A stretch of DNA of 64,000 bases, taken from NCBI GenBank assembly GCA_000002445.1, contig AE017150.2, positions 608,001-672,000 on the forward strand. The letters are read 5' to 3'. Both the position numbers and the translations under genes were made by a program. The notes under the pieces are model-generated. The model made no database searches. It had not been told where the DNA came from and worked only from the letters and a program-made list of their open reading frames with translations. Positions within the stretch are counted from its first letter, which is position 1. Each line of letters begins with the position of its first letter. Source of the DNA: Trypanosoma brucei (taxonomy: Eukaryota). Positions 5,848 to 55,361 of the stretch are shown here, one piece after another.

Positions 5848-6225
5848 ATGGCTAGCATGCTTCATGAAACTGCCACAACCGTATCATACAGGGGAGCGCT
5901 ATGCAAATTAGCAGGTGTTGAGCTACAAGGGATTAATTTATCACCACCTCAAAGGCTGTGCCACTTGGGGTTGCTGATCAGTCGTGAGATCAACTGGCTG
6001 GCAGCAGTCCTCGAGGAATGGGAAGAAAAATATATGCTTTTGACATGTGTGCCGTACCGTGGTGTTGTGGACGCGTTTACAACCCTGCTCAGGACAATTA
6101 AGCGGCACCTGGAGACAGAGAACAGTTCAAAGGACAATGAAAAGGAGTGGGATGCGTTGCTGGCTTCTAGCATTACTGAATTTCAGGTGGAGGTTATGGA
6201 AATCGGAAAGGGTAAGAGTTACTAG
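5848..6225 (+). CDS. Conserved hypothetical protein, copy 2 (125 aa), interleaved between ISG65 copies.
   Basis: ATG-initiated. Near-identical to 2304..2681. Confidence 0.5.
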   Translation: MASMLHETATTVSYRGALCKLAGVELQGINLSPPQRLCHLGLLISREINWLAAVLEEWEEKYMLLTCVPYRGVVDAFTTLLRTIKRHLETENSSKDNEKEWDALLASSITEFQVEVMEIGKGKSY

Positions 6226-7765
6226 CATTTTTTTCTTTTCTTCCTAAATGGACATTTAACTTTTTTTCCTCTTTTTTTTACGGTGGTATATCCTCTTTTT
6301 TTGTCACCCAATGGTTAAATTACCATGCGGTGACAAAACAAAGACTCGGTTTTTAAACTCATTGAGAATAATAGAGTACGCATACCTAAAAAAAAGTGTA
6401 TGCGGAGTGGATTATGTATTCTCATGAAATCAATCATTCAAATATCTAATGCAAAGCGCAAACAACTGTACGACGGAAATTTTTTAAATTTTTGCGGTGC
6501 CTCTATAAATAACTCCTTCACTAACCGTTATTGCTCGACGTAGCATCACTAGGTAAACCTTTACGCGTTCGTCTGCTTTGAATGCACTAGTTCATACAGC
6601 TCCCTAAAGTCTAACTCCGTCTCAACTTTTTCCCCACTCTTACACATCGAATAGTCTTCGACAAAATACAAACCCTTGGGAGTCACACCTCCACAAGAAA
6701 TTAGTTATAGCTAGCCTTCCCCCACTGCGCAGATTATGCATCCTTATCAATTGCCTCGGCTGATAACTTAAATTGACAGCGTAATTGAACTATCCGTCTC
6801 TGTTATGAGTCCCTGATGGCAGTACTCGTGGTTTCCATAGGATGGGGAACGATCCGTCCGAATAATCCAAATTTGAGGGGTTAAAGGGTAGTAAAATACA
6901 TTACTTTCATCAGATGAAGAACACACGAAATGACTTAAGGGTGCGAGAGTGGCATTCTGAACCTGTAAAATGTGTACCTTGCCTGCTTCTTCATGCCATG
7001 AAATGTAAATATATCCCAAACATTCAAGTCTGCTTTGTCGATACATTTGTCACAGAAGTGTAGTAGGTTACATGGTCTGTGTGAACTGAGGATCGAAAGC
7101 TCTCAGGTGGCAATGCTTGGCGGTGTAATGTATGCATGGCCGCAGTGTTGAATACCATTCCTTATATCTACTCGATGAGTTCAGTTTTGGCGAGTTAGCC
7201 TATGATTGTGTCTTCGATGTTTTATCTCGGGGTTTAGTAGAGGTGGACACATATAAAGTTATGGGGGCGGCTGTTACCTGTGGGAGTCCTATTATAAAGT
7301 GGTAAGTACTGTGCCTCTTTTATGGGTGCTGTCAGACAAGCATTTTGTTTTGTGTGGAGACGAACTTTCCTCCATCTGCTTTGGAGGGACGATTTAAGTC
7401 ACTGCTGGTTTCTGTTGTGCAATAGAAACGCGAGAGGCAAAGTGTGTCTGTTGAAGTGCGATAATTCTTTTTGGGCGCGTCTTCATTACCGGGATGTTGG
7501 GAATGCTGATTACTGCTGTTTCCACTGTAGTGAGGCGAATAAACAGCTGCAAGTGTGTTTCGGATCCCTTTAGTTTTTAGTAAATCCTTTTCCGAATATG
7601 TGAATACCAAGCATACACACGCAATAATTTCCAAGCTAATATTTGTAACTCTGGATATTTCACAACTTGGGTATGTATGTAACATTGTAAATTGCTTTGC
7701 TTCTTTTGCAAAATCATTTGTGGAAGAGTTCTTGATAAGACTGAAAGGTGGAATAATATAAAAAA

Positions 7766-9079
7766 ATGATGAAGTATTTGCTGGTATTTGCAATTATTAC
7801 CACAAGAATCCCTGTGTTGTTAGTAATTGGCAGTGAGGATAACCGTGTTCCAGGAGACAAGAAGTTGACGAAAGAGGGAGCAGCGGCACTCTGTAAAATG
7901 AAGCATCTTGCTGATAAAGTTGCAGAGAAAGGAGCAGAGGACTTGAAGAAGAAAACTCAAAATTTTGCTGGTTTTATAGAGTTTGAGCAGGAGAAAGTTG
8001 ATAACTGGTTGGAGAAGCTGAGAAACCGGAAACAGTATAGCGACGGCTACGCTAAGCTATCTGATTCTGACGTTGAAAAAGTGAAGGAGATATTCGACAA
8101 GGCAAAAGATGGAATAACTAAACAACTCCCAGAAGCGGAGAAAGAGGCTAGAGAAGCTGAGAGGCTGTACGATGAAGTGAAGAAGGCGGCACAGGATGCA
8201 CGCGGACAGGATCTTGATGACGATACGGCGAAGTCCACGGGCTTGTACAGGGTGCTGAATTGGTACTGTATCACCAAAGACAACAACAAAGATATCACCC
8301 ACAATTGTGACGATGGGATCAAATTCAGAGATCATTATCTGTCGGTGAATAGAAGCGCTATTGACTGCAGCAGCACCGGCTATAAGGAGGATTATGATTG
8401 GTCTGCGAACGCGCTGCAGTCGGCTTTGAATGACTGGGAGAATGTGAAGCCAAAGGAAGTAAAACCAGAGAGCGGTGGTAATGACGTGTGCAAAAAGGAC
8501 GAATCTTCCGAGAGCCATCCGTGCACCATGACAGGAGGGTGGCAGACTCACTACAAGGATAGTATATTGAAGTTGAAAGAACTTGAAGATGCGCACAAAA
8601 GGGGAAAGGCGGCTCATGATGCTATGTTGGGTTACGCTAATACTGCACATGCGGCGAACACGAAAGTGGAACAGGAAAAGCCGCTGGCAGAGGTGATAAC
8701 GGCAGCCAAGGACGCAGGGAAAAAGGGCGCGAAAATTATAATACCCGCAGCTGCCCCAGCAACATCAACCGATAGCACAAAAAGTGAAGATAGTGCTCCA
8801 GCCGAGCATGTTGATAGAGGGATTGCAACAAATGAAACACAGGTGGAAGTTGGTATTGATGCTGACTTTGATAGTCTGCTGGAGGCCGCTGAAGCTGCCG
8901 AAGTAAAAAGCAGACATCAGAGAACAGCAATGATTATATTGGCAGTCCTTGTACCTGCCATTATTCTGGCTGCGGCCGTTGCATTCTTCATAATGGTGAA
9001 ACGAAGGAGGAATAGCTCCCAGGATGTGGACACTGGAAAAGCGGAGGGTGGGGTTTCTAGCGTAAAAGTAGTAATGTAG
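7766..9079 (+). CDS. ISG65: ISG65 family, divergent copy 3 (437 aa). The ectodomain is substantially diverged from copies 1 and 2. The first ~19 aa and the last ~130 aa (membrane-proximal region, TM and tail) are near-identical.
   Basis: Conserved Cys spacing is kept (CKMKHLADKVAE, WYC, IDCSSTGY, ESSESHPCTMT). The mature N-terminal region differs (VIGSEDNRVPGDKK versus ATNGGDKHVKANKK). The TM and tail are identical apart from LAAAVAF versus LVVTAVAF. Confidence 0.8.
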   Translation: MMKYLLVFAIITTRIPVLLVIGSEDNRVPGDKKLTKEGAAALCKMKHLADKVAEKGAEDLKKKTQNFAGFIEFEQEKVDNWLEKLRNRKQYSDGYAKLSDSDVEKVKEIFDKAKDGITKQLPEAEKEAREAERLYDEVKKAAQDARGQDLDDDTAKSTGLYRVLNWYCITKDNNKDITHNCDDGIKFRDHYLSVNRSAIDCSSTGYKEDYDWSANALQSALNDWENVKPKEVKPESGGNDVCKKDESSESHPCTMTGGWQTHYKDSILKLKELEDAHKRGKAAHDAMLGYANTAHAANTKVEQEKPLAEVITAAKDAGKKGAKIIIPAAAPATSTDSTKSEDSAPAEHVDRGIATNETQVEVGIDADFDSLLEAAEAAEVKSRHQRTAMIILAVLVPAIILAAAVAFFIMVKRRRNSSQDVDTGKAEGGVSSVKVVM

Positions 9080-11488
9080 ACTCACCTTCACTCTTATACA
9101 AATGTGCAGGTTTTTTTTTAAACAGCGAGTGTAAATAAAAAAAAAATAATAATGACAGTGAATTGAAAACAGCTGCATAGATCCGTGAGACAGGGAAGAA
9201 GTGCCGGCGACCTTTGCTTTTCTTTTTCCTTTTTTTCACTACTTTTATGGCCGTCCGTAAGGCGGTCTATAGAAAGGTAACGCCTTTCTGCGGAACGGTT
9301 TCCCACGCCGTAGTTGTTGTTTCCACCTTGCTCATCGTAAATGAGTGTTTCTACCGGAACTAACTGTCATGTAAACTATAAGCTTCTTCACCTCTTGCTA
9401 AACTAGGAGTTTCATGTTGCGACAATAAGCACATCCCTTGACGCACTCAGTGTTCTTTCCATACGGAAGTTGCCTGTGGTTTTCAATCTTTGAGAGGTAT
9501 TACCTTGTTTGTGGAATGTGGACCGGAGGGCGGTGGCGGAGACTGGTACCGGAAGGCCATTTGGCACTGTGTCTACCTGGTGGCGTCGTAGGGGGCACCG
9601 GGTAACGAGGCGAGGGCGCGATGTGGAGTCGCCTTTTGGGTCATGGGGTTTTTGTTTTACCGGGAGACATGGCTCCTTTTTTCGTCCGCCTCCACCTGGA
9701 CTCTTACTTCACGCTCTGCTTTCGCTTCCCATGTAACGCAAAGGCGCGGGGGCATTATGTACGATGCCGCAGGGGGCGGGTTGCTGGGCACATTCGTGTT
9801 CACATGACTGGCGCAGTTCCGTTAAGCTTAGAACGACCAACGCGGCTGGCATCTTCTCAAAAGAGCGTGGCGTTGGGGCGCTCCCCCGAATTTGCTCGGG
9901 AAGGTAATGCAGTACAATTTCTTCATCGTGACGAGGCGGGTTGTCTTCGGTCTCTTTGCTGGCTCACCGATGTGGGCGTACAGTCTCGTCCTTCCCGAGA
10001 AGTTTTTCGTGCAGCACTGACCTCTCTGGACAGGGAAATTTTACCACTCGTCAGAGCGCCGAAATGTAATGCCGTCGAAACTTCAGGAAGCCAAATCGTT
10101 ACTACTCCTTGAGGGTAAGGCGGTGAGACCTCTCCCCTCTGTTTTATTGGCTGTGGTTGCGTTTCCTCCACCACTGTTGGCGGCTTTTTTTTCCACTGCA
10201 TCTGTGAGCCCATTTTTTCCCCTTAGCTCCTTCGGGGCGCCATGCTGCAGCTGGCGGTCGACAATTTCTGGCAACCAATCTCTAATCTTCTTTGGAAACG
10301 ATTGTTGTGTAGCCCGCTAAAACCCTTCAGCGCGCTCTGTTAGCATCGCATCTACAGCTAAACATAACTCCTCTTTACAACTTTCGGTTCCAGCGCACGG
10401 AAGGTTAATTGCTTTTTCTGACATTTGGGAGCCGCACCGTGCATTTGTCTTCTCAGGCCTCTGAGGTTTTCGAGACGCAAAGCTGTTCCTCACCCCGGAG
10501 ATATCACAACCACTGATGCGGGGATGGATCCCCCATGAGCACTGCTTTGAAGCTTGTCGAGGTCCGTTTTCCTTTTTCTTTTCGGACGGGTGCCTGAATT
10601 CCTGCATGTGGTTCCTAAAGTTGGGGAAGCGCTTATTGGCGCTGTGTGCCAGCGGTCATGTGTAGTTTGCGCATTCATTCGTCCCGTGAGCGAGCCCCAA
10701 CGTAGCGGTGGGATCGTTGCAACAGAAGAGGAAGAGAAAGAGAGGTTGAAAGTCTATTCTAAGGCGGATATTGTTCCGGGTCTTTTCCCAAGAGCGTAAC
10801 CCTCTGGACACGCATTGTGTACGATTGGTCTTTGGACGCGAAAGGGTACGTTCAGCAAGGCCGCTCATACGGAACGCCCAACCAAAACGTTCCTGTTTCC
10901 GTCAAACCATTATGGAAAAGAAATTGCCAGTAGTTTGAAAGCATTTAACCAATGCAACACTTCTCACTCTTTTTCTTGAGTCCCCGTCTTTTGGCGATAT
11001 CTCCAATCTTACGCGGTGGTTACACTCGCACTTCCCCCTTTAATCCTTCAACCACACTGATTTTTCCTCTAATAATTATTAAGCACTACCTTAGCATAAG
11101 CAAGACCATCCGCTACCAGGGGTAAATGTGTCCTTGGCGACTTTTTCCCTACCCGCAGCATCCCCCCTTTTTTGTTTCAAAACCGACCCAAATCTATTTA
11201 AGGTAACGGAACAGCGTCAGTATACGCGCATGTATATATGCCCCTTTTTAAAAATCCATTCCTTCTGCCGCTGACCGAACAACACAAGGGTAGGGGACCG
11301 GAAAAGAAAGAAAACCAAACCCTCCAGAGACAGTGGGGGCCTCTTTAACAGGGCAAGGCCGCTGTTTACCGCAATAAAATCCTCGAAACAAATTTTCCAC
11401 GGAGAAGCTGCTTTGCCGCCTTGTGTCAGAAATGGCGGTGAATACTAGGAAGAAAAGAAAAAGATGTGATGGTGGGTCCTTTCCTCAG
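9080..11488. other. Convergent strand-switch region. The last + strand gene ends at 9079 and the first - strand gene's 3' end is at 11489. It contains a GC-rich island of about 1.4 kb at about 9500-10900.
   Basis: All supported CDS up to 9079 are on the + strand and all supported CDS from 11489 onward are on the - strand. The island's base composition is visibly GC-richer than any other non-coding stretch in the window. Confidence 0.75.
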
Positions 11489-12199: not shown

Positions 12200-15100
12200 C
12201 GAAGCGCTTTTACCATTTTCAGCAGGGGCGAACGGACCAGTGGTTTTATTAAATTGCGACTGGAAGAAAAAGTGACGTCACCAACCCGCTGACGAAACGG
12301 CGCGCGGACTATTCATTCTGAGATGGTCCGGAATTACGCTGAATAGTAAAAACAGCGATGGCGTACCTGGAAACGGCGTGTGGGTGTCTGCAGCGCAGTG
12401 CGGATCAACACCGTGCGGTATCATGATATTCACCACAGTTCCAAACGAATTTATATAAGGGAGTGCGTATGGAAAAATCCGGCGCCAAGTTTACAGCATT
12501 CTAGACGGTGTTAAAATTGCCCTCCTTTTACACGTTGACACAACTGTGGTATCAGCATCACTTTTTATGGTTCCCTTTACTCCGCCACAAAAGCAACTGC
12601 GCTTCTTAATACCGTAAAACGTTATAACTCCTTCTCCTTTCTCCATTGTTTGCTACCTCCCAATCACATGCCACTAAATCGTGGCGCAACCTTCTCCCCA
12701 TTTTCCGGTATGTCACTTCGCCACATCCAAATGAACTGGTACATTTTAATTTGTGGCGCCACATGTCTTTAATCAAATGTACCCATTGCTTCATTCCAAA
12801 CAACATATGTGCACAAATACGTCCCTCCCTATTCGCGTTTGGCGACGGAAATGGCAATATTCCCTTCTTTTTTTTCTTTTCCTCAACACCAACACGCTCC
12901 ACCCCGTAAGATCAAAATATTTCTTGTAAAGTCAAAACCATAATCCACCAGCTCCAATTGCTTTTACCGGTGTGGCGCCCGTCGTCTTTCCCCCCTCGTG
13001 AGAAGCGGCACCATCGGGGAAGTTTTGAGGGAGATGTGATGATATCGTGCATTTGAGCTTCAGTGCAAAGCGCAGAGCAGACAAACACACACGTAAAAGT
13101 GGTAAACATTGTTTAGAAATGAGACATCACTAAACCTTTCCTTTCTTTAGCGTTGGCACTTATTGAAACTTAAAACTGACAATACACCTTACATAATCCC
13201 TTTACGACTCCATTTCCCTTGTCGGCTGGGTAGTTTTTTTTTTCCCCCTTTTTCCCTCTTTTTGGAAGCTTCATTCCTCTCACCTATCGGAGTGTTTCAC
13301 CTGAATTAAGATGAGTAACCGGCATTATTCCTTCAGGTGTTCTGTGAAGTCCCTTAAACGGGATCCTATTATTATTATTATTGTTATTACAGTTAACGAG
13401 TCCGGATAAATAACTTCCCTTCATTGTTAGCGCACCTTCCCTCCACTATTCATCAGAATCAACAACATTTAACAACAACTGCAACGCACCTCGCTTTCCA
13501 ACACTCAACTGTTGAGAGTTTTTTTTTTCTTTTCCATCCTTGAGGCTTTAGCGTGTTATGAAATCGGGTCCGCTCAAATTGCGAGGCTTAAATTACCATT
13601 TATTTATTTTGCCCCCGTGTATGCAATAACATGTGCAAACCACCACGTATAGCCGGATGGAAAAAAATGATAATAATAAAATAAGGCGACATTATCCGAT
13701 AATTACGCACCATTTTCTCTTTACAATATCATTGGGAGTAAATTGTGCTCTCGTATGCGCGGCGAGATTACGAGACAATAGTGAAGTCAGAAAAAAAATA
13801 ATAATAATATAAACATGTTTTACCGGCAAAAGAAAAAAGCCGATTTAAAAGGAAATGTTTGTGCATTCCCTTACAGAAGTGAGGAATTGGAGGGGGGGGG
13901 GGAGGAATTATTGAGTCCGGTTACTGTTTTTTTTTTTAAATTAAATTTAATCTAATTTAACTTTATTATCCCCCATTGGAGTAAATTCACCTTCAGGGTT
14001 ACAAATATGAAGTGGAGGCGCAAACAAAAACATACCTCTGGTTGAAGTCCGCGACTGATACATTTATATTTGACCCCCACTTTTTTTTTTAAATCCTGAG
14101 GAAAAAAAAAAACTCAATAGTCGCTTATAATTCAATACAAAAACCTTTTTTTTTTTTTAAAGACGCGAGTTGCAACATTGCGGTTGCGCATGGAGAGGCT
14201 TCCAAAAGTTTGTTTGAGCTTACGGACGCGTGTATTTGTGGAAACTTTTGCATTTAAACTAAAAAGAAATAAATAAATAAATATATATTTCTATATTTAT
14301 ATATTTGAGCTTATGTAAGCAATTACCTTTTTTATATTCATGTACAAATGGAGGGGAGAGGATGGAAGAAAAAAAATAAAAAGAGAAGAAAAGAAAAGAG
14401 AAAATACCTGTGACTAGTAATTAAGCAAAACGAACCATTCACAGGATCTGGTAAATTAAAATAACAGCAGAAATAGAAAGAAAAGGAAAAAAAAAGGAGG
14501 AATTAAAATGGGTTCGTGAAGTTAATCTACCGTCCTGTTGGGTTTCGCTGTTGGACTCAACCCTCACTGTTACAATCATTAAAAGGAAAGAAAGAAAAAA
14601 AAAGAAAAAAAAACAAATACGAATAAATAAAAAAATTTTTGTACCGTTTAATTAATAAGCAGAAGTGAGTCGAAAACGTTCGCAAACAAACAAATAAATA
14701 AAAAGATGAGAGAAGCGAAGAGGGAAAATTAAAAAAAAAAATCAAGAAAAAAAAGAAGAAAAAGGAAAAAAAAAGCCCCCATCCGCTTTTTCTCTCCCCG
14801 TTTCCCGTCACTAAACATTTCCGTCCATTCCGCATTCCATATGTATGAAATAAGCAGTTGGGAGGAGAGCGGGTTATGTGGAAGGACTTAAATAAAAATA
14901 AGTGAACGAATAAACATGCGAACCACCACCAAAGTTACTACAACCACAACCACAACCACAACCACAACAAAAAAAAAACAACAATAAACCAAGGAGGAAG
15001 GAGAAAAAAAAAAGAGAAACAACAAAAACAAACAAACAAACGACATTGCCGTCGAAACCCCCACATGATAATTTGGGAAAATGTGTGCGAGTACGCGAAG

Positions 15101-16802: not shown

Positions 16803-18204
16803 TTTCCGGATCGTATACCTAAAACAAGAGATTAAATAACAGCAACAATAATAATAACAGCAATAATAATAAAATCATCACATAATGATTAATTGTGGTG
16901 CCGCTACAGAGTAGAGGGTATTATTTCCACCAACACCTCACCGCCTTACGACTTACTTTCGGGGAGGGAAAACTGGGGAAGGGGGTTAGGAGGCGGGCTA
17001 AGCACCTCTTTTTTGTTTTGTTTTGTGTTTTTTTTTTCGATACGGACGAACTCCTTTTTGCATCCCCACATATGAGGGAGACCACGCTGCGTGAGGTGGA
17101 GCGTATAAGTAAAAAAGTAAAAAAATAAATAAATAAAATAATATATATATATATATATATACCATTGACGCCTAATCGTTTCCCCCCTTCCCCAACTCAG
17201 CAACCTTTCCTCATCTCCCCCCATTCACGTAAGTGAGTTGTAACAGCCAATTTGCGGAAACCTCCACTTATACGTCCAGATAAGTTACACCAGCCATAGA
17301 ATGGGTCATTCTCACAACATGGTGCTGGTACTTACGACATATATATATATATATATATATATTCATTTATATATACATAAATATATGTATACGTAAGTCC
17401 GCTTTTATATTATAGCTGGGTCTCGTGCTCCCGGTTGCGGTGGAGCGATTTGTCCCTTCTTCCTTCCCTTACATAAACTCTACACGTGAATGAGGGGGAA
17501 TGACCGCCCAAAGCATGAGTTAGTGTGCAACACGGCAAATGTGGATGATGTTCCTCACTCACTCACGCATGAGCAAGAACACACACACACAAAAAAAAGA
17601 AAAATAAATAAATAAAAGCAAGGGATATAGAAGGGTATTCACGCCACGCGCACATTAAAGCGCTTACATATATTTGTGCATTTACAAGGGACTTATTTTA
17701 TTGGCATCTACGAACGGGTACCATTTGGAGGTTCCAGCTTCACAAACACTGGGTTGTAGGGGCAGACACTTACTTTCACTTTTCGCACAATGGGGACTTC
17801 CCCCCCCCCCCTCGTAAGTACTAATGATGATCATGGATGCCCAAAGAATGAATTGGCGAGGCTTGAGCTAATACACACACATACACATACACGCACACAC
17901 ATACCTATATATAATTATATATGCAAATATATATATATATATATACGTATATATATTGTGTATACAATGTGAACAAGGGTAGCGAGAGAGGGCGCTTGGA
18001 CCCCTCGCCTATAGCAACAGCCCTCAGTTTCACATCATGCTTTGATAAACCTGTTCGAATAAGCACTACAGCGACTGCCACGTCCTTTACGTGCCCTTCA
18101 AAAAGCTCAGGTAAGCCGCAGTTACTGGACTTCCATTTGCGGCTTTTCATCGTTGATGGCCACCCTTTCTTTCCCTTTTCAACTTATAGGGCGATCACTT
18201 GCCT

Positions 18205-27581: not shown

Positions 27582-28727
27582 TCACTGTTCAGCACCATCC
27601 ACCACCTTCTCAGTTTCCTCCTTGTCCTCATGAACTTCCCCAACTGGCGTTGTTCCGAGGGCCCGCTTCGCCAGCAGTTGCTTCTGAACCTCCTCAGGCA
27701 GTTGGCGAAACCAGTAATCAAGAATGCCTTTAGAGAACCTAACAATATGAGGTGGAAAACCATCAGATAGGAATTGGCCCACAGCCACCCCAATCTTGGT
27801 GCCTATAAGTTGTTTCAGGGTAACGTTTGCACTCGCCAAGGAGGAAAGTAAGGAAACAATACGTTCCTCGTTTGCGATGCTAACCTCAACAACGTCACCG
27901 TTCAGACATTCCATGTACGTCTCTGTAAGTTCCTTCCCTGTAGTTTCTAAAGTTGCGTTCGTCACATCATGACGGCTCTTGCGCAGCATATCCACAACAT
28001 AAGCCACGTCGTCGTCTGCAGATGCGGCAGATCCTTCCCTTCCCACAGTGTCGTACGTTGCATTAGGGAGGTCTCTACCATCTTCACGGCCTCGTTTCCT
28101 TTCGGTACGTTTGCCGTACTCATCATCACTGGAGCCACCAGCCAACTCGGACTCGGAGCTGTCGCCACCAAAGTCCCTCAGAGTCTTGATTTTTCGCTTT
28201 TTTCTGTGGCGCTGCCCACTTTCCTCACTTTTTGTCTCCTTCCTTGAGATGTGATGACGTCCTTCGTCTTCTTTCCGCCTCTCTTCCACATGCTTTGATG
28301 CACCTCTTCTTAACGATAGTTTCCGTCGTTGCGGTGCTTCAACCGCTTTTTGCTCTCCGCCGTCGGCGAATTCCGTTTTTACACCTCTAACCCTCCGTTC
28401 ATTTGTTCCTCCAGCTTGTGCCTTGAGTTGTTCTTCATATAGTTGTATCGCCTCTTCGATTGCGACCGCGCAGCTCGCGTCTAACTTTCCTTCTTCCATC
28501 ATTCCCTCATCTCGATCCGGAAGAAAATATCTAATTTGCCCCTCATCTTCGCTGTTGGCGGCTGAGAGAGTGAGGGAATCGCGAGGAAGACAACAAACCC
28601 ACACGTCTGACCCCTCAGGCAGTGTTATGTCCCTGACCTCGTCGGGGTCCATGACAAAACCCGGCCACCAGGGGAATCGATCCTGTTTCAACCACACAAG
28701 GGTCCCTGGAGCAAATGATGGAATCAT
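27582..28727 (-). CDS. PWWP-domain protein (382 aa from the first ATG) with a C-terminal TFIIS N-terminal-type (TND/LW) domain and no TFIIS domains II/III or Zn ribbon.
   Basis: PWWP motif VWLKQDRFPWWPGFV near the N-terminus. The C-terminal segment SLASANVTLKQLIGTKIGVAVGQFLS parallels LASVSVTLRQLLRTKIGVSVSRALS of the neighbouring TFIIS paralog. The ORF-track start at 28787 is GTG. The first ATG (MIPSFAPG...) is at 28727. Confidence 0.7.
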   Translation of the reverse strand: MIPSFAPGTLVWLKQDRFPWWPGFVMDPDEVRDITLPEGSDVWVCCLPRDSLTLSAANSEDEGQIRYFLPDRDEGMMEEGKLDASCAVAIEEAIQLYEEQLKAQAGGTNERRVRGVKTEFADGGEQKAVEAPQRRKLSLRRGASKHVEERRKEDEGRHHISRKETKSEESGQRHRKKRKIKTLRDFGGDSSESELAGGSSDDEYGKRTERKRGREDGRDLPNATYDTVGREGSAASADDDVAYVVDMLRKSRHDVTNATLETTGKELTETYMECLNGDVVEVSIANEERIVSLLSSLASANVTLKQLIGTKIGVAVGQFLSDGFPPHIVRFSKGILDYWFRQLPEEVQKQLLAKRALGTTPVGEVHEDKEETEKVVDGAEQ

Positions 28728-30765
28728 TTTTTTTCTTTTCCCCCCGTGGCTGGATGGGTTCAAAATGATGTCCCGACTGGTGTGCACATGTTTTTTTTAC
28801 CCGGTAATTGTAATATATGTAATGTATATATAAATATATATACGTATACGTGGTGGTGTGTGTGTGTGGGAGGGGGGGGGGAGGTGAGTAAAGTATGAGA
28901 GGAAAAAAAGAAAAAGAAAAGGAGAAAGAACAGAGGAGTTGAGAGACACTGACTTGTGAAAAGTAAACTCAAATAAAGCAGGATGGGACCAGGAACTGGA
29001 AAACGTGCAGGGGTAAAGGGAGTTAATGTACTGCTCCACCTCGTTATTACGCCCTTGTTGTTATTTTCCGTTTAGTTTATTTATTTGTAGGGGGACAAAC
29101 AAAACAACGTGCTATAGGGAGGGTGGAGATTTCCACCGGTCTACAGTAGTGTGACAACAAATCGCACGGATATAAGTAGAAAAAAAAACTAAAGAAAATG
29201 AAAGAAAGCTCGCAAGGGTGGAGATTTTTAGAAATACGGTAATAGCATTGTTGGCTTTTCTTTTTCTCTTAACCTCTTGTTTGATGTACAAACACTCGTG
29301 GGGGTTCATTTACCTTTTGAATTCTTTCTGTATTTCCCCTTCAATGCGTGCTAATATATTTAAGAATATATTTCAATTGAAGAAGTATTCTTTCTCAGAA
29401 TCCACTCCACCATCCCCCACCTTTGGCTTCGGCTTTGGTCTCGTCTTTCTTTTTTTTTTTTTTGTAGCCTTCATGTATTTACATATTCCCTTCACTCGGA
29501 CGCTTGATCTGGCCTTTTTTTTCTTTACGTTTTACTCTACTTCCCCTTTTAAAATTCTTTGCAAATCAATATGTTGCTTCCGGCTCCCTCTTCGTCTCTT
29601 CCTCTTTTTTTTCCGTTATTTCTCTTTCAATGTTATAAAAGGAAATAAAAAATTCACAAGGCGACTCCACCGTCGACATGATGTACTGAAACACGTAGAC
29701 ATCTGAAGATAAGGAATAATAATAGTAATAATAAAGGCGAAGAGTAAAACACACGCACACACACAAAGCCCAAGGGAAGAGGAAAAAAAAAGGTATAAAT
29801 CAATACATACATTTTATGTGTGTACATGCCACACGTAAAATAAAGAAAGAAAGTAAAAGCAAAAACGTGCATTTGGTGCGGCGGCAAATGGGAACAACAA
29901 AAACAACAAAAGAAAATTGCGTAAAGGATACTCGTGGGGGCTTCGCTGTACGGGGGCAGAAGGAAACCCAGTGGCATGAAACTAATATATATATATATAT
30001 AATTAATTAATTATTTATTTATTATATTTCCTTCAAAGTTTCCCCCTCTGGCGTTTCAATCTTGCTTTTGGTTCTTATCCCCATTCTCATTTTCACTCTC
30101 CTCGCTTTCATTTTCCCCTTTTCTTCTCTTCTCTTTTTTTTCCTTTTCAAATTTAAGCTTGCTTTTGTCTCTTGAACTTAGCCGAAGATACGTTACCGTA
30201 AATAATCGCCTGAAAAAGATGTTAAAAAGCAAATTCTTCTTTCCGTCCTTTTTTTTTTTGAAAAATAAAACAAGCACATCCCTGTTGACTTCTTTTCCCT
30301 TCACTTCTCTTTTAGACCGCATAAAGTAACTCCTCTTCCGTTGGGCGTAAAACAGAATATGAAGAGAAAAAAAAAAGAAGGTGAAGGTGAAGGTAAAGGA
30401 AGAAACAGGGTACTCAAGAAAAAAAAAACGCAAAAAAAAACTACAAAAGCAAAATCAACGGCAAAGCAGTGTTTTTCCTTTTTTTTGATTCCTTCACCGC
30501 ATTTCACATTCTCTTCTGGTGACAAACTGAGGCTCAGGCTCCACCATAAGAGAATATGAAAAAAAACATACAAGAAAAAAGAAAAAAATAGTAACGGTAG
30601 ATAAGTAAGTGACGCCAAGTGAATTAATACATATATCCTGATCGGCATTAATTTACTTGGCATTATTCGTTAAACAGCACGTGTGCTCATAAAAAAAGAA
30701 AAAGAAAGAAAAACATCGGTGCAAGATAAGTAAGGACAAATGCAATGATACGCACGGTAGTGACA

Positions 30766-31613
30766 AGAAGAGAATTCAACTGTAAGAATAAAGAAGAAAA
30801 TTGCTTCGTGCCATATTGAATGATTTTCCATTTCCATCTCTTCTTCTTACAGTTGAATTCTCTTCTCTTTTTTTTCTTTTCCTTTTTTTTTTAAACATAA
30901 AAGTTACGTCATCATTACGACCATCACCCTTCATCTGATAAAGTTTCTGGCGTCTTTTTTTTCCCCCTTCTGTGCGTCCCATTTTACCACCTCACCTACT
31001 GTTTCACGATATGGTGAGATTCTACATTTTCATATCGTATCATATTTCATATTTCCTTTATTGCCTCACATATAAATACAAAAATATGTTAATACAAATA
31101 TATAAACATATGTTTGTTTATGCATTTATTGTATGACATCACAAACACTTGTGACTAACAACAACCACGACTACAAGAAGAATAACAGCAACTACAACAA
31201 AAAAAATGCCAGAAACTTTATCAGATGAGCCGTGATGGTCTTTTTTTTTCTTTTTTCTGGTGACCTAACGCCAATTTCCCCCACCATTTTGTTACCCCTT
31301 CCCCCACCCTTATAAATTAATATATAAATATATATCTATATCTATATATTTGTATTAAAAAATGTATTTTATACATATTTATGCGTAAGCTTTCCGTGTT
31401 CATCCGTACAAACCACCACAGACATATATAGATAGATAGATAGATCATGTTTCAATTGATCGCGCAAGAGGAACATAAATTGTAGGCAACAATGAAAGTA
31501 GGGATTTAATGGTTATAAGTGAATTAATAACCAAATAAATGAAAACCATATGAATAAATATGTATAAAATACATTTTTAAATACAAATATATATATTTAT
31601 TTATAAGGGTGGC
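30766..31613. repeat. Cluster of three inverted-repeat pairs within a 4.7-kb spacer. IR-A is a 23-bp perfect IR (30766-30788 and 30844-30866). IR-B is a 33-bp IR at about 91% identity (30919-30951 and 31208-31240, spacer about 256 bp). IR-C is an imperfect IR of about 65-80 bp (31303-31382 and 31549-31613, spacer about 165 bp containing (GATA)n).
   Basis: Reverse-complement matches checked by hand. Examples: agaagagaattcaactgtaagaa with ttcttacagttgaattctcttct; gaccatcacccttcatctgataaagtttctggc with gccagaaactttatcagatgagccgtgatggtc; tttgtattaaaaaatgtattttatacatatttat with ataaatatgtataaaatacatttttaaatacaaa. Confidence 0.85.
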
Positions 31614-33497
31614 GCACATGGCTCAGAAGAGGCAAGTGAAGGAATGCCTCAAATGTACAACAAAAGGCCGACGTTGGGTGAATTGCGGGAGGAAAAACAA
31701 AAAAAAGGTTGAAAAGCGTAGAGACGATCAAAGCAGTTGGGTGACCATAAAGGCAAGAAAAAGTATATCATTAAATGATGTGCACAGTCAGACACACACA
31801 CACACACACACACGCATGTGGACAGATGCATATATAAATATAAATAAATAAATAAATATATATATATATATATACAAAGGTAAACATACATGTCCGTACA
31901 ACAATAATGATAGTGTTTATGATAATAATTAGTAATATCATAAAGGGAATCACCTCCAGCAACAATAATAAAAGGGGGAAGTGATACTGAAATTTGTGGT
32001 GGTAGCAAAGATGGTAAGTAACAAAAACAGCAACAATAAAAGTAACGATGCCGACCGCCTTCGACGTTATGAAATTGTGCCGAAAGTTACGAAGCAAATA
32101 AGAGCATTGCGCCACAGTGGTTAAAAATAAGTGAAAAAAAAAGGAAGAAAGCAGAGATACGGTGCGAGCTGAATAAATATATTAATATATTAATATATAT
32201 ATATATATATTAATTAACTATATGACGGTCCATTCGAGAAAAATATACTTTCCTATTGTATTTATTTAATACACATTGAGACGCAAATGTACCATTTCTG
32301 TTATTTCTCTCCTTTCTTCTCTCAGTTTTTTAAAAATCCTGTCATTTTCTCCGTCCCCCTCCCCCCTCCTCTTCTTTTTTCCTTTCCGCACAGTAAACCT
32401 TCACGATTTCAAATAAATTGTGCATGTCGAAAAAAAAAACCAGCAAAATATAAATGGAAATGGGGCCGCCCGTAGTGCTGAGTTTTCTATATGACACAAA
32501 TGTTTCTTCCCCTCATTTCCATTAAAAAAAATTTTTTTCCCACCCTTCCCGCAAAGACTCGGCCCTCTCTCTTTTTCTTTTTCTCATTTATTCGAACTAT
32601 TTCACATTTCCCTCCGGTTGCTCACTCGCTTGCACCATTCTAGTGATGACTGTTTATTTATTTATAATAATTTTTTTTTAATTACAAAAAAAAACATTTA
32701 TTTATGTATATTTTAAAAAGGCTTTTGAAGGGGGCCGTCACAAATGATCAATGCAGTTTTCCCTTTTTTTTTAAAAAAAATCACTAAACAAAGGCAGAAA
32801 AACATTATTTTTTTTTTCCCCACTCGGTCCAGTAACTCCTCAATAAAAGTTCAGACGGATGGGGGCACACACTTTTCAACCGAGGAAAGTGAGTAGGGTT
32901 GGGGTTAGGGTTAGGAGGAGACAACCAAAAACAAAACTAAACAGGACAAAGGATCTTACAACTGAAAAAGAATAATACAAAACAAAACAATAACCGTGGC
33001 AAAAAGAATTATCCAAAACCTACAAGCACATAATTGTGAAGGACAGGGGGAAAAAAAAAGGAAACAAACGAACAAAGACAAAGCACAGAAAAGGCTCACA
33101 TTTGTTTCCCCCCTCCCTCATATCGGTCAAAGAATCGTTTCCATCTATTCGGCGACACCTTTCCTCCCAAACAGGTTGCGCCCCCTTTTTTTTTTCTTCC
33201 CCCCCTCCGCCCCCCTTTTTTTTTAAATACTTTCCCCTCCCCCGGAGTACAAAGCTGTTTTCACATTTTGCAATCTCCTTGTCTTCTTTTTTCTCGTTTT
33301 CGTAGATTTTACCTATTAAATTCACGAGTATTCGCACCTTTTTTTCTTTTCTTTTCTTTCCCCTCCCCTCTGCTCCGTGCCCCACCACCAATTTTGTGTT
33401 TGTTGTAACCATTTTAAATACAAGGTCCATATGGAACTGATTATGGCGAAGCGTCACATGATTAACATAACATTAATATGGCGACCTCCATCGGCAA

Positions 33498-34901
33498 CTA
33501 ATTCTCTGACCAATTATGTTTGCACTTAATGCACTTAATAAATTTAGTTGTCGGTTCATCCGCTGACCGGATCTGTAGTTCTCTCCATTCACATTCCCTT
33601 CCGTGACACTCCGGGCATTCAAAAAGTGAGGTGGTATGCAACAGCGACCGCTCGGTTTCTTCCAAGTTTCTTAGTTTCTCCGTAGTTCGGCGCTCTGCGT
33701 CCTCTTTTTCCTCTTGCGTCATTAGTTCCCAGCGACTGAGTTCGAGAAAATCCTTTCCACTCAGCTCCCCCATCGCCAGCCTGCGCCGTATTTCTGATAA
33801 CCCCGGTTTACTCAAATGCTCCAAAAGATACATGCGGTCCTCCGATCTTGTTACCTCAGCGCATATTTTTTCCGCTACAGATCTGAGATCATCACTTCTA
33901 ACACTAAAACTATGCGGATCCCCCGGTTGGAGAAGCAGCTTCTGCACCCGGTCAACAAACTGTGGTTGTGCCCCTCCTCCAATAGTAATTGGGTTGCCCA
34001 CGCTTTCACTTGTTGACGGTGTTGCCACATCCCGTTCCTCCCTCGTTTGTGAACTGGAAATGGTTCCCCGTCTTTTGTTATGGCGTGCACCGCCGCTCCG
34101 CGCCGTCCCCCCTCTTTTTTTGGCTTCCTGCTCGTACTTGTTGTACTCTTCAATTGCTCTCACAGTTTCCTCCGGTAGTTTGGCTGTCCAAGCGGAGATG
34201 ATACAAGTAGCCAGGCTCCTTTGTTCTTCTAGATCCTTTTTTGACAAGGCCCTTGAAACCGACACACCAATTTTTGTGCGCAAAAGCTGCCGGAGTGTAA
34301 CACTGACGCTCGCAAGTTTCAGAAGCGTGCTGGTAAGCAGAGCCCCGTCGCAGTTATCAGTGGCTTCATCAATATCTTTTTTCCATTGCACCAGTGCGTC
34401 GTCCGATGCGGGGGATAAGTGAGAGCCGGTACTCCTCTGTCGCATCCGGCTCACCTCACGGCTGCGTTTGCCCCCTGCAGTTTGCTGAGTGGCATTGTTA
34501 AGCGAACCCGCTCGCCCGCTTGTCGAAAACGCCCTCTGTGATGTTCCCCTCGGCGCCGTATTTTTTGAATGAGTCGGCTCAAATCGCAATGCGTTGGACT
34601 CCTTGTCCTCCTCTGCGTTACGAATAGCTTGCAGAAGATCCTCATTGGCGGTGACGGCTTTCTCAGATGAGGGCTCAAAAAATGTAATGGCGGAGGAGTG
34701 GCTGTCAACATTTTTATAGGTGGCCTTATTTTGGGTTCCTGGATACGTGAGAACGGTAACCGTAGATGTGCCAGTTTCTGACGACCTTCCGTCAACTCCC
34801 TCCACACCGGTAACTGAAGTGACTTTTGCCGGCCACCACGTGTTAGCTCCAGTCTTTAGCCAGACACGGTCGTTAATATGAAATACTCTTTCTTGAAGCA
34901 T
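33498..34901 (-). CDS. TFIIS2-2: Transcription elongation factor TFIIS paralog with an N-terminal PWWP domain (467 aa). The architecture matches the PWWP-containing trypanosome TFIIS2-2.
   Basis: N-terminal RVWLKTGANTWWPAKV (PWWP). Central TFIIS-N domain. Acidic-loop/domain III region. C-terminal Zn ribbon CPECHGRECEWRELQIRSADEPTTKFIKCIKCKHNW, with the canonical RSADEP motif and four Cys. ATG checked. Confidence 0.85.
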   Translation of the reverse strand: MLQERVFHINDRVWLKTGANTWWPAKVTSVTGVEGVDGRSSETGTSTVTVLTYPGTQNKATYKNVDSHSSAITFFEPSSEKAVTANEDLLQAIRNAEEDKESNALRFEPTHSKNTAPRGTSQRAFSTSGRAGSLNNATQQTAGGKRSREVSRMRQRSTGSHLSPASDDALVQWKKDIDEATDNCDGALLTSTLLKLASVSVTLRQLLRTKIGVSVSRALSKKDLEEQRSLATCIISAWTAKLPEETVRAIEEYNKYEQEAKKRGGTARSGGARHNKRRGTISSSQTREERDVATPSTSESVGNPITIGGGAQPQFVDRVQKLLLQPGDPHSFSVRSDDLRSVAEKICAEVTRSEDRMYLLEHLSKPGLSEIRRRLAMGELSGKDFLELSRWELMTQEEKEDAERRTTEKLRNLEETERSLLHTTSLFECPECHGRECEWRELQIRSADEPTTKFIKCIKCKHNWSEN

Positions 34902-53012: not shown

Positions 53013-55361
53013 TCCTCCGAAAACTTCTCTTTCTTATTTTCACTTTTATTTGCTTTCTCACCAGAATGAAAATATTATTCGACTTTCGTGTTATGTCGTT
53101 GTTCTATTTCTTTGCTTCCCGTCCAAATTCACTGTTTAGACGTACCAACGACTACTATACTAATTAATGTATTACTCCAACCTTCCTTCACTCGGCCCCA
53201 AACCTATATATATATATATATATATATAATTTTTTTTTTTGAGGTGTGACGGATATTTTTATTATCCTCTCCTCGCCTTTTCCCGTCTTGGATTTGGAGC
53301 CCTGCCAATATTTCGCCGCTACAACAACAACAACGTCACGAGTTCTCTTCTTTTTTTTTTTGTTGTCTCCTCACCCTTTCCTTCCCCGTTTTTTCAACTA
53401 TATTTTACAAATACAAATATGTATTTGTTGCTTTCGTTTTTGAGAGTCGTGCTTAATATATATATATATATATCTTCAAGCACAAGGAGCAACGCCGTGC
53501 AAATCACTGCAGGTTCACTACGACTTTGCGGCAATACGTGTGGAATGAATTCCCTTTTCTTTTTCTCTGCCGCATCTTTTGTGGTAAATGAAGTACAATT
53601 TATTATCGTATCGTATCAGCATTACGCACATGTGCGTGTATGTGTATATGTATGTGTAATACAACAGAAAACAAAGAAGCGGAAAGAAGAGTAATATTTT
53701 TTAAAAAGGGAAAGTGGTAAAAAAGCATCGAGGAAAATGTGAGAGAACAACTTTTTATTTTTTTATCTTTGAAATGAGGGGGGGGGGAAGTTGAGAAGAA
53801 GACAAATAACACGATTGAACATGACAGTTAATGAAGCGGCAGTGACGCCTGCAGCACAGAATTAAATGGAAAATGAAATGAAATAATAAAAAAAAATTGC
53901 ATGAACACCTCCCCTCACCTCCTCTTCCTTCTACTCCCTTCTTTTTATATTATTATTATTATTTATCCCTCCCTTCTTGCAGAGACTGTAAACAATACTG
54001 GATGAATTTCATTTTATTTTTTTTTAAATTTTCCTTTCCCTTTTCTTTTTTTCCTCCTTTTGAATTTTAATTCTCTTCATTGAAAACTTGTACAAACCCG
54101 TATAAATAAATACACACAAACACACAGTTGTAAATAACTAAATATAATTAATATATTTATATATTTGCATATTGGGAATTATAAACTTACTCGCATTGAA
54201 TCCATCATCGTCCCGATGTTGCGAAGATACGAAGCAAAAAAAAAAAAAAGGAAAGAAAAAAAGAAAGAAAGACAGGGAAGACAAACAAACACACACAAAT
54301 AGAGAGAAAGAGAAAGAGAAAGAGAAATAAAGAGGTACGGTCATGCACGGGTAGGTGATAAATAATAATAATAATATTAACAAAAAAAACAATTATGATG
54401 GTAATAACAATAATAGTACAAGATCAACAATATATGTACATATACAAATATAAATATATAAATAAATATATATATATATATATAAGCAAATAAGCAAGGG
54501 AGGGAGAAAGAGGAAGAGAAAGAGGGTAAAAGACAGAAAAATAGGGGGGGGGGGGAGAAAATGAAAATCGAAAATCATAAAAGAGGAAGAGGGGAGGAGG
54601 GGGAAAGAAGAAAGAAAAAAGAAAAAAGAAAAGGACTCACACGATTCGAGCCGAGGGGACTGACAAGTAAAAAAAAAAGAGAAAGCTGATGTACAAACAA
54701 ATCAAATACACTACAGAAGCCACCCATACAAAACAAACAAACAAGGGTAAATACAAGCGTAAAACTGAATTAAACTAAATAATGAAATGAATGGAAGAAC
54801 ATTTAGATAATACACAGAAAATGAACAGCAGGAGGTGAGAAAAAAAAAGTTAAAAAGAGAATTTTTTAAAAAAAAGATGAGTCACTGGAGTTGGAAATAA
54901 TATAAATGCGGATTCATCACTCACATTACCTCTCTCTTCTTTTCATCATGCCTTGCATGCACTTAATGCTGCTGCGTCTCTCACGCAAACAAATCTGCGT
55001 TACAAAACCGTGGATTCTTTCTTTTTTTAAAAAAAAAATTATTATTTCTCCCCTTTTATATTGAATCCCAAACGGTACGGTGGCAAGTGCCCCAAAACAG
55101 TTCTTCACCTTCACTTATACAAACTTATACAAAATGTTACGTATAAATGAATATACAAATCAAAGAAACAACAACAACAACAACCCTTACTTTAACTTTA
55201 CTTGTGCTCTCTTGCATTTTCATCATTCGTTCGATCATTCTTTTGGTTTTATTATTTGCCTCAAACCTACGCTAATTCTACTCTTATCTCTCTATTTTTT
55301 TTTCTTTACTTTTGCATCACAGTTGTGTGAGCAACGCAAGGGCGGAACAAATTCACATTTT

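What the first reader, a model, noticed from the sequence alone, without database searches (positions are those of the whole stretch)
30766..31613. Nested inverted-repeat cluster, MITE-like in geometry, inside a 4.7-kb intergenic spacer
Three separate inverted-repeat pairs lie within 850 bp. They are a perfect 23-bp IR with a 55-bp spacer, a 33-bp IR at about 91% identity with a 256-bp spacer, and an AT-rich IR of about 65-80 bp with a 165-bp spacer. Long perfect IRs are not expected by chance even in AT-rich DNA. The second pair has the geometry of a miniature inverted-repeat element, about 320 bp with 33-bp termini, which would be unexpected in T. brucei if my species guess is right. All three could instead form cruciforms or hairpins in nascent RNA. 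As far as I can see, no annotated feature type explains them.
Basis: seen in the sequence. Interest (0 to 1): 0.55.

Follow-up and report, generated by a model that had tools for sequence, protein, structure and literature searches.

The report
Hairpin repeats in TFIIS2-1 3'UTR
Three real, side-by-side hairpin-forming inverted repeats sit inside the very long 3' untranslated region of the Trypanosoma brucei TFIIS2-1 gene; they look like products of replication template-switching, not a mobile element, and the spacer of one is exactly flipped in T. b. gambiense.

Summary
Three inverted repeats (IRs) lie at 30766-31612, and they are the only non-low-complexity IRs in the 64-kb window. Their scores of 37, 27 and 23 exceed the maximum of 19 in 200 shuffles. 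They lie side by side, not nested. The window is T. b. brucei TREU927 chromosome 2. The "4.7-kb intergenic spacer" separates TFIIS2-1 (Tb927.2.3580) from TFIIS2-2 (Tb927.2.3480). A published Northern blot shows a ~7-kb TFIIS2-1 mRNA with a 3'UTR of at least ~3.5 kb, so the cluster, 1.9-2.7 kb past the stop codon, is transcribed within that UTR. The MITE reading is not supported: there are no target-site duplications, no further copies, no empty sites in three genomes, and trypanosomatids are reported to lack DNA transposons. All three IRs are present in T. b. gambiense DAL972 and T. equiperdum. T. vivax, T. theileri and T. melophagium have a ~1-kb spacer at this position and no such IRs. In DAL972 the 55-bp spacer between the perfect 23-bp arms is the exact reverse complement of the TREU927 spacer. 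That is the classic signature of template switching or recombination between IR arms. Published siRNA surveys do not list this locus. Best reading: lineage-specific hairpins made by template switching and carried in a giant 3'UTR. An RNA-level function is possible but has no support so far.

The parts
30766..30788 (.). IR-A left arm (perfect 23 nt; imperfect extension to 30801)
30789..30843 (.). IR-A 55-bp spacer; it is the exact reverse complement in T. b. gambiense DAL972 compared with TREU927 and T. equiperdum
30844..30866 (.). IR-A right arm (perfect 23 nt; imperfect extension from 30830)
30919..30960 (.). IR-B left arm (42 nt, 37/42 complementary to the right arm)
30961..31198 (.). IR-B 238-nt spacer; its two halves are not significantly complementary, and it contains small local palindromes
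31199..31240 (.). IR-B right arm
31304..31393 (.). IR-C left arm (63-nt ungapped core 31331-31393; outer CCACCCTTATAA segment joined across an expanded TA/TATC microsatellite)
31394..31542 (.). IR-C 149-nt spacer; it includes an (ATCT)n / (AGAT)n microsatellite that varies in DAL972
31543..31612 (.). IR-C right arm
33498..34901 (-). TbTFIIS2-1 ORF (Tb927.2.3580; PWWP + TFIIS domain II + Zn ribbon), whose 3'UTR carries the IR cluster
29000..33497 (-). Inferred 3'UTR of TFIIS2-1. At least ~3.5 kb by published Northern blot. The distal end at about 29000-29250 is inferred from the polypyrimidine tract and AG acceptor of TFIIS2-2.
   Evidence: (PMC2610381); the distal end is inference
28868..28938 (-). 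Minus-strand polypyrimidine tracts upstream of TFIIS2-2, the probable trans-splicing signal that sets the end of the upstream 3'UTR
   Evidence: inference from sequence
27582..28727 (-). TbTFIIS2-2 ORF (Tb927.2.3480; 381 aa counted from the ATG, as annotated in DAL972; PWWP + Med26, no Zn ribbon)

Best explanation
The cluster is three independent short inverted duplications, each able to form a stem-loop. They lie in the giant, AT-rich 3'UTR of TbTFIIS2-1, which is specific to the T. brucei lineage.

They were most likely created by short-range template switching, or intra-strand recombination, between nearby reverse-complementary sequences during DNA replication. The same process would keep IR-A perfect and occasionally flip its spacer.

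The region is transcribed as part of the minus-strand Pol II polycistron and is retained in the ~7-kb TFIIS2-1 mRNA. The mRNA is therefore predicted to carry three long hairpins. No selection for them and no small-RNA output is evident, so they are best treated as near-neutral structural passengers.

Shown:
- The IRs are real, statistically significant and clustered.
- They are present in three T. brucei-group genomes.
- The IR-A spacer is exactly inverted in DAL972.
- The orthologous spacer is about four times shorter and lacks comparable IRs in T. vivax, T. theileri and T. melophagium.

Inferred:
- Template switching, rather than recombination between the arms, as the molecular route.
- Neutrality.
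- The exact end of the 3'UTR.
For: - The IR scores far exceed all shuffles, and these are the only non-low-complexity IRs in 64 kb.
- The IR boundaries are sharp. Spacer halves and outer flanks are not significantly complementary.
- The 55-bp IR-A spacer in DAL972 equals the reverse complement of the TREU927 spacer, with identical arms and unchanged length. T. equiperdum matches TREU927.
- Template switching between short IRs is described as causing homogenisation of the arms and inversion of the spacer (PMC8604942 abstract).
- Template switching is also described as creating or perfecting hairpin stems in one step, with loop inversion as its strongest footprint (PMC8794818).
- The arms are not more conserved than the rest of the spacer. 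Between TREU927 and DAL972 there are 2 substitutions in the 84 nt of IR-B arms, against about 1.2% across the spacer. Neither change is compensatory: one gives a G.U pair on the minus-strand RNA and one gives G.G.
- The spacer is 1183 bp in T. vivax, 972 bp in T. theileri and 940 bp in T. melophagium, with no comparable IR in any of them.
- The cluster lies 1.9-2.7 kb downstream of the stop codon, inside a 3'UTR of at least ~3.5 kb (PMC2610381).
- The hairpins are predicted robustly: -43.7, -103.8 and -92.7 kcal/mol, with z-scores of -7.6 to -8.9.
Against: - Only three closely related genomes (1-2.5% divergent) were available. The inversion therefore cannot be polarised, a one-step origin of any IR cannot be shown, and selection on the stems cannot be tested properly.
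- Three IRs within 850 bp is itself unexplained by a purely random mutational process. It could reflect function rather than a local mutational hotspot.
- IR-B and IR-C are imperfect (88% and 86%), so they are not being actively homogenised.
- Homologous recombination between the 23-bp arms would give the same flip as template switching.
- The inversion rests on a single DAL972 assembly.
Confidence: 0.6

Rival explanations
1. The hairpins are functional RNA structures in the TFIIS2-1 3'UTR. In this reading the 23-63-bp dsRNA stems are bound by RNA-binding proteins, or are cut by the trypanosome Dicers as an endogenous hairpin-siRNA or miRNA-like source. This would tune the level of a Pol II elongation factor mRNA.
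For: - The cluster is transcribed within a mature ~7-kb mRNA.
- The predicted structure is very stable on the transcribed strand.
- Three hairpins are clustered in 850 bp and conserved in all three T. brucei-group genomes.
- One DAL972 arm substitution keeps pairing only on the minus-strand RNA, changing U-A to U.G.
- T. brucei makes siRNAs from long inverted repeats (PMC3447711).
- IR-A has pre-miRNA-like geometry, though it gives only sub-threshold generic hairpin hits in Rfam.
Against: - The locus is in neither Tschudi et al.'s table of siRNA-producing IRs (all >=422 bp) nor their 'miscellaneous' list, which has no chromosome 2 entry.
- Two small-RNA surveys report no miRNAs in T. brucei.
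- The plus strand folds equally well, as expected of any DNA-level IR.
- The arms show no excess conservation and no compensatory change.
- Flipping the spacer replaces the loop sequence with its complement, so the loop sequence is unconstrained.
- The IRs are absent from T. vivax, T. theileri and T. melophagium.
Confidence: 0.2
2. IR-B, or all three IRs, are miniature inverted-repeat transposable elements (non-autonomous DNA transposons) inserted into the spacer.
For: - IR-B spans 322 bp with 33-42-bp terminal inverted repeats and an unrelated interior, which is MITE-like geometry.
- The spacer is ~3.7 kb longer than in other trypanosomes, so sequence has been gained.
Against: - There are no target-site duplications at any IR.
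- There is no second copy of any arm in 64 kb.
- There is no empty site in DAL972 or T. equiperdum.
- The three arm sequences are unrelated.
- No class II elements were found in 57 trypanosomatid genomes (PMC12278014).
- No transposase-like ORF lies in the spacer.
Confidence: 0.03
3. The IRs are the surviving ends of larger, older inverted duplications (palindromes) whose centres have decayed.
For: A lenient gapped alignment can be stretched across nearly the whole IR-B interval, with 106 Watson-Crick pairs.
Against: - That extension is not better than shuffles (30 of 500 shuffles reach it), and a direct-orientation control scores about the same.
- The interiors of A and C score at or below the shuffle mean.
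- Decay confined to the centre while the ends stay 88-100% complementary would need an extra explanation.
Confidence: 0.07
4. The IRs are chance matches or a by-product of overlapping low-complexity AT repeats.
For: - Parts of IR-C are TA/TAAA/TATC microsatellite.
- Those parts cross-match other microsatellites at about 14.3, 17.1-17.9 and 54.4 kb.
Against: - The arms of A and B are 60-70% AT and are complex sequence.
- The IR-C core and its CCACCCTTATAA ends are unique in the window.
- All three scores exceed every one of 200 composition-preserving shuffles.
Confidence: 0.01

Closest known systems
Template-switch mutations and IR spacer inversion (Loytynoja & Goldman 2017, PMC5453318; Monttinen & Loytynoja 2022, PMC8794818; yeast IR study, PMC8604942)
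   Same: - Short reverse-complement repeats lie close together.
- One repeat (IR-A) has perfectly homogenised arms.
- Between close relatives its spacer is replaced by its exact reverse complement with length unchanged.
- The result is hairpins embedded in a transcribed region.
   Different: - This has not, as far as the searched library shows, been described for T. brucei.
- The inverted spacer (55 bp) and the stems (23-63 bp) are much longer than the 4-8-nt loops typical of the rRNA cases.
- Three such IRs are clustered.
- A one-step origin could not be reconstructed, because no alignable outgroup was available.
Hairpin-associated small inversions in chloroplast non-coding DNA
   Same: Loop flips bounded by short inverted repeats, recurring among close relatives and located in AT-rich non-coding sequence (own knowledge; papers listed).
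   Different: This is a nuclear, diploid, Pol II-transcribed locus. Only one flip has been seen among three genomes.
T. brucei long inverted repeats that yield siRNAs (Tb927_02_IR1 to Tb927_11_IR7; Tschudi et al. 2012, PMC3447711)
   Same: [quoted passage not shown]
   Different: - The known ones have 422-10,011-bp arms at 99-100% identity and documented AGO1-bound small RNAs.
- These have 23-63-bp arms and are not in the published lists.
- The two chromosome 2 IRs in that paper are elsewhere, at about 899 kb and 994 kb.
MITEs (non-autonomous class II transposons)
   Same: IR-B has terminal inverted repeats of 33-42 bp around an unrelated interior of ~240 bp.
   Different: There are no target-site duplications, no other copies, no insertion polymorphism, and no class II elements are known in trypanosomatids.

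Membership tests
MITE / class II non-autonomous transposon | Terminal inverted repeats bounding a short non-coding element | tested here: met
   IR-B spans 30919-31240 with 42-nt termini at 88%. This is geometry only.
MITE / class II non-autonomous transposon | Target-site duplication directly flanking the termini | tested here: not met
   No direct repeat of 3 bp or more was found at A, B or the outer ends of C, allowing boundary shifts of +-3. The 4-bp match at the C core lies inside a microsatellite.
MITE / class II non-autonomous transposon | Multiple dispersed copies in the genome | tested here: inconclusive
   There is no further copy in the 64-kb window with up to 3 mismatches or by blastn. 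The whole T. brucei genome is not in any searchable collection here.
MITE / class II non-autonomous transposon | Presence/absence (empty-site) polymorphism between strains | tested here: not met
   All three IRs are present and collinear in DAL972 and T. equiperdum.
MITE / class II non-autonomous transposon | Cognate autonomous DNA transposon in the lineage | tested here: not met
   Literature: no DNA transposons in 57 trypanosomatid genomes (PMC12278014). The spacer ORFs have no Pfam hit.
Template-switch-generated hairpin / IR spacer inversion | Reverse-complement repeat within short range on the same chromosome | tested here: met
   The arms are 55, 238 and 149 nt apart.
Template-switch-generated hairpin / IR spacer inversion | Spacer replaced by its exact reverse complement, length maintained, bounded by both stem halves | tested here: met
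   The IR-A 55-bp spacer in DAL972 equals the reverse complement of the TREU927 spacer. The whole 101-nt unit is 100% identical in reverse orientation.
Template-switch-generated hairpin / IR spacer inversion | Homogenised (perfect) arms | tested here: inconclusive
   Met for IR-A (23/23). Not met for IR-B (37/42) or the IR-C core (54/63).
Template-switch-generated hairpin / IR spacer inversion | Ancestral state without the repeat, converted in one step (phylogenetic reconstruction) | not testable with these tools
   The only outgroups obtained (T. vivax, T. theileri, T. melophagium) have an unalignable ~1-kb spacer without IRs. T. congolense could not be retrieved.
T. brucei siRNA-producing inverted repeats / hairpin-RNA loci | Inverted repeat is transcribed so that fold-back dsRNA can form | tested here: met
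   The cluster is inside the 3'UTR (at least ~3.5 kb) of the ~7-kb TFIIS2-1 mRNA (PMC2610381). Hairpins are predicted on the minus strand. Transcription is taken from the paper, not measured here.
T. brucei siRNA-producing inverted repeats / hairpin-RNA loci | AGO1-associated, Dicer-dependent small RNAs of 22-25 nt (the size range in PMC3447711) map to the arms | tested here: not met
   The locus is absent from Table 3 and from the 'miscellaneous' supplement of PMC3447711, which has no chromosome 2 locus. Raw reads could not be examined, so low-level production is not excluded.
Curated RNA families (Rfam 15, including trypanosome snoRNAs and miRNA precursors) | Covariance-model score at or above the family's gathering threshold | tested here: not met
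   No hit in the window at gathering thresholds. IR-A gives only 22-26-bit hits against thresholds of 70-100.

The most novel reading that the evidence does not exclude
The three hairpins might form a discrete, Dicer-processed endogenous hairpin-RNA (miRNA-like or hpRNA) module.

The module would either be embedded in the TFIIS2-1 3'UTR or be released as its own ~0.9-kb non-coding RNA. Minus-strand polypyrimidine tracts with AG bracket the cluster at 31687-31708 and 30689-30715, which would allow separate processing.

Such a module would couple RNAi to the level of a Pol II elongation factor. DNA-level flipping of the IR-A loop would then add strain-specific variation.
Probability: 0.06. Interest if true: 0.7.

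Novelty: new member of a known kind. Interest (0 to 1): 0.3.

Why it matters
- It removes a false lead. A DNA transposon in T. brucei would have been a major surprise, and the evidence here is against it.
- It assigns an "unannotated" 4.7-kb gap to a documented giant 3'UTR.
- It gives a clean, checkable example in a kinetoplastid of an IR-bounded spacer flip between subspecies. This is the signature of short-range template switching or arm recombination.
- Such flips appear in ordinary alignments as dense clusters of false substitutions. Here about 24 apparent substitutions fall within 55 bp.
- Such events can also change spurious ORF calls. The DAL972 "hypothetical protein, unlikely" reads through the flipped loop.
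- If the hairpins turn out to be Dicer substrates, they would be the shortest endogenous hairpin siRNA sources known in T. brucei.

Tried and rejected
- **Exact look-up of the window's TFIIS2-1 protein and of P0008 (TREU927).** Neither is on record as a gene position, so the TREU927 chromosome could not be fetched beyond the window.
- **Concatenated spurious ORFs from 30300-32100 as a protein query, to fish Logan contigs of other strains.** No hits.
- **Cluster look-up of the DAL972 110-aa "unlikely" ORF that spans the flipped loop.** It is a singleton.
- **Logan contigs carrying TFIIS2-1 or the upstream GTPase gene.** They are too short or extend the wrong way, so no fourth genome was available to check the flip.
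- **T. congolense.** It was not among the hits.
- **Rfam.** No family at gathering threshold, and only generic sub-threshold hairpin hits in E-value mode. No tRNA was found.
- **Extension of the IRs into their spacers or flanks.** Not significant, so the decayed-palindrome idea was dropped.
- **Strand-specific G.U analysis.** The core arms show no clear bias: IR-B has 2 G.U on plus and 1 on minus, and IR-C has 2 and 2. The 11-versus-3 bias in the over-extended IR-B alignment reflects purine/pyrimidine skew in a non-significant alignment.
- **Pfam on all longer spacer ORFs.** Nothing, so there is no sign of a coding or retroelement remnant.
- **Scans of the metagenome, viral and prokaryotic collections for the arms.** Not run, because those collections do not hold trypanosome genomes.

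Full report
**1. The observation**

Reading 30400-32000 and running the repeat finder confirms three inverted repeats.

- IR-A: 30766-30788 pairs with 30844-30866. The arms are a perfect 23 nt with a 55-nt spacer. A gapped alignment extends them to 36/37 nt.
- IR-B: 30919-30960 pairs with 31199-31240. The arms are 42 nt with 37 complementary positions and a 238-nt spacer.
- IR-C: 31331-31393 pairs with 31543-31605. The arms are 63 nt at 86% ungapped. Across an expanded TA/TATC microsatellite the repeat continues out to CCACCCTTATAA at 31304 and 31612.

I scored ungapped IRs with +1 per match and -2 per mismatch. The three score 37, 27 and 23. In 200 shuffles of the 4.7-kb spacer that preserve dinucleotide content within 250-bp blocks, the best score averaged 12.3 and never exceeded 19.

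Scanning the whole window, these are the only IRs with score >=18 and arms <=600 nt apart that are not pure AT or simple repeat. All three fall within 850 bp. The IRs lie side by side in the order A, B, C. They are not nested.

**2. Where it is**

Three tandem ISG65 genes at 681-9079 (Pfam ISG65-75, E = 1e-101) place the window in T. brucei.

The two minus-strand ORFs flanking the gap are PWWP/TFIIS-like proteins. The 467-aa protein is identical to XP_951597.1 of T. b. brucei TREU927. Uzureau et al. 2008 name these genes TbTFIIS2-1 (Tb927.2.3580) and TbTFIIS2-2 (Tb927.2.3480).

The same paper reports a ~7-kb TFIIS2-1 mRNA, about 5.5 kb longer than the ORF. With TFIIS2-2 lying 4.8 kb downstream, the authors concluded that the 3'UTR is at least ~3.5 kb (PMC2610381).

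The IR cluster begins 1885 nt and ends 2731 nt downstream of the stop codon, so it lies inside that 3'UTR and is transcribed as the minus strand.

The strongest minus-strand polypyrimidine tract is at 28868-28938, followed by an AG near 28777. This sits just upstream of the ATG at 28727, the start used for the 381-aa DAL972 annotation. It suggests the UTR runs about 4.3-4.5 kb (inference).

No spacer ORF has a Pfam match. No Rfam family reaches threshold and no tRNA is present.

**3. Structure**

As RNA, the 901-nt minus strand folds to -269.9 kcal/mol, with a z-score of -11.3 against shuffles. All three hairpins appear in both the MFE and the centroid structures.

Folded individually on the minus strand, the hairpins give:
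- A: -43.7 kcal/mol (z = -7.6)
- B: -103.8 kcal/mol (z = -7.9)
- C: -92.7 kcal/mol (z = -8.9)

The plus strand folds about as well. That is expected of any DNA-level IR, so folding alone does not indicate an RNA function.

The spacer halves and the outer flanks are not significantly complementary. The IRs therefore have sharp edges and are not the ends of decayed larger palindromes.

**4. Mobile element?**

- None of the arms has another copy in the window, allowing up to 3 mismatches or using sensitive blastn. Only the AT microsatellite parts cross-match other microsatellites.
- No target-site duplication flanks any IR.
- The three arm sequences are unrelated to one another.
- A curated survey of 57 trypanosomatid genomes found no DNA transposons and concluded the group is devoid of class II elements (PMC12278014).

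The MITE reading fails the defining features that could be tested. Genome-wide copy number could not be tested, because no searchable collection here holds the T. brucei genome.

**5. Relatives**

Through the protein cluster of TFIIS2-1 I obtained the orthologous loci of two close relatives:
- T. b. gambiense DAL972 (L005), 97.5% identical over 14.4 kb.
- T. equiperdum (L006), 99.0% identical.

All three IRs are present and collinear in both (alignment A1).

The striking difference is in IR-A. BLAST found the 101-nt unit of TREU927 matching DAL972 at 100% in the opposite orientation. Direct comparison shows the DAL972 55-bp spacer is exactly the reverse complement of the TREU927 spacer, with identical arms. 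T. equiperdum has the TREU927 orientation. In an ordinary alignment the flip looks like about 24 clustered substitutions and small indels.

Elsewhere, the TREU927-DAL972 differences in the spacer are ordinary: about 1.2% substitutions plus microsatellite indels. The IR-B arms carry two DAL972 substitutions.
- One changes a U-A pair to U.G on the minus-strand RNA.
- The other changes C-G to G.G next to the internal loop.
- Neither is compensatory, and the arms are not more conserved than their surroundings.

In more distant trypanosomes the gene order is conserved: BEACH protein, GTPase, TFIIS2-1, TFIIS2-2, CHAP. But the TFIIS2-1/TFIIS2-2 spacer is only 1183 bp in T. vivax, 972 bp in T. theileri and 940 bp in T. 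melophagium. These shorter spacers hold no comparable IRs, only polypurine/polypyrimidine matches. The ~3.7-kb expansion and the IRs are therefore specific to the T. brucei lineage. T. congolense could not be retrieved.

**6. Mechanism**

An exact spacer flip bounded by perfectly matching arms is what short-range template switching between IR arms produces.

- The yeast study summarises this as "homogenization of IR arms and ... IR spacer inversion" (PMC8604942).
- Monttinen and Loytynoja show the same process can create perfect stems in one step, and they treat loop inversion as its strongest footprint (PMC8794818).
- Recombination between the 23-bp arms would give the same product.

I therefore read the cluster as hairpins made and remodelled at the DNA level in a fast-evolving AT-rich UTR, and carried passively in the mRNA (confidence about 0.6).

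The main rival is that the dsRNA stems are functional, either as regulatory structure or as Dicer substrate. T. brucei does make siRNAs from inverted repeats. However, the seven known loci have 422-10,011-bp arms, and the chromosome 2 ones lie elsewhere. The "miscellaneous" list has no chromosome 2 entry, and neither small-RNA survey found miRNAs (PMC3447711 and PMC3683921).

With only three near-identical genomes, selection on the stems cannot be judged properly. I give this rival about 0.2.

The tight clustering of three IRs remains unexplained by either view. A local mutational hotspot or a structured RNA module would both fit.

**7. Verdict**

The MITE interpretation is not supported. The feature is a new example, apparently undescribed for T. 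brucei in the searched library, of a known kind of event: template-switch or IR-mediated hairpins with a spacer flip. It is located in a documented giant 3'UTR.

Interest is modest at 0.3. It would rise if small RNAs or an expression effect were shown.

Noticed in passing
window 30789-30843; L005:11086-11140: The 55-bp spacer of IR-A is exactly inverted in T. b. gambiense DAL972 relative to TREU927 and T. equiperdum. In collinear alignments it looks like a dense cluster of about 24 substitutions.
   Followed up: yes
L005:10852-11184 (minus strand of locus; about window 30745-31075 +): DAL972 annotates a 110-aa 'hypothetical protein, unlikely' (XP_011771762.1) that reads through the flipped IR-A loop and into IR-B. 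It is a singleton in the protein collection and is almost certainly a spurious ORF created or lengthened by the flip.
   Followed up: partly
window 28788-33497 compared with L009:16858-18040, L002:11435-12406, L003:7438-8377: The TFIIS2-1/TFIIS2-2 spacer is 4.7 kb in the T. brucei group but only 0.94-1.18 kb in T. vivax, T. theileri and T. melophagium, despite conserved gene order. The source of the extra ~3.7 kb is unknown. It has no coding or Pfam signal and no repeats elsewhere in the window.
   Followed up: partly
window 681-9079 (+): Three tandem ISG65 genes (436-437 aa) occupy repeats of about 3.5 kb. The first was confirmed as Pfam ISG65-75; the other two are inferred from equal length and spacing. 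The first and third units also carry a 153-aa antisense ORF (247-708, 7332-7793).
   Followed up: no
window about 9100-11450: A convergent strand-switch region lies here, with plus-strand ISG65 genes meeting a minus-strand gene cluster. It probably corresponds to Tb927_02 CTU3 (615.5-623 kb), which Tschudi et al. list as a weak siRNA source with 101 reads. The match is inferred from position only.
   Followed up: no
L006 about 10658-10680 (window about 31218-31240): The T. equiperdum assembly has a run of about 22 N exactly over one arm of IR-B. This suggests the hairpin disturbed sequencing or assembly there.
   Followed up: no
window 31687-31708 and 30689-30715 (minus-strand polypyrimidine tracts): Polypyrimidine tracts followed by AG on the transcribed strand bracket the IR cluster, so a separately trans-spliced and polyadenylated ~0.9-kb RNA is conceivable. 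Such tracts are frequent in the spacer (9 on the minus strand), so this may be chance.
   Followed up: partly
window 31790-31875, 32172-32223, 29980-30033; also about 14250-14310, 17110-17160, 17340-17390, 17870-17955, 54430-54486: (CA)n followed by (TAAA)n/(TA)n microsatellites recur in several intergenic regions. They account for all cross-matches of the spacer elsewhere in the window, and they vary in length between TREU927, DAL972 and T. equiperdum.
   Followed up: partly
window 27582-28787: The mechanical ORF for TFIIS2-2 starts at a GTG (401 aa). The DAL972 annotation (381 aa) and the position of the polypyrimidine tract and AG indicate the real start is the ATG at 28727. As published, this paralogue lacks the TFIIS zinc ribbon.
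   Followed up: partly
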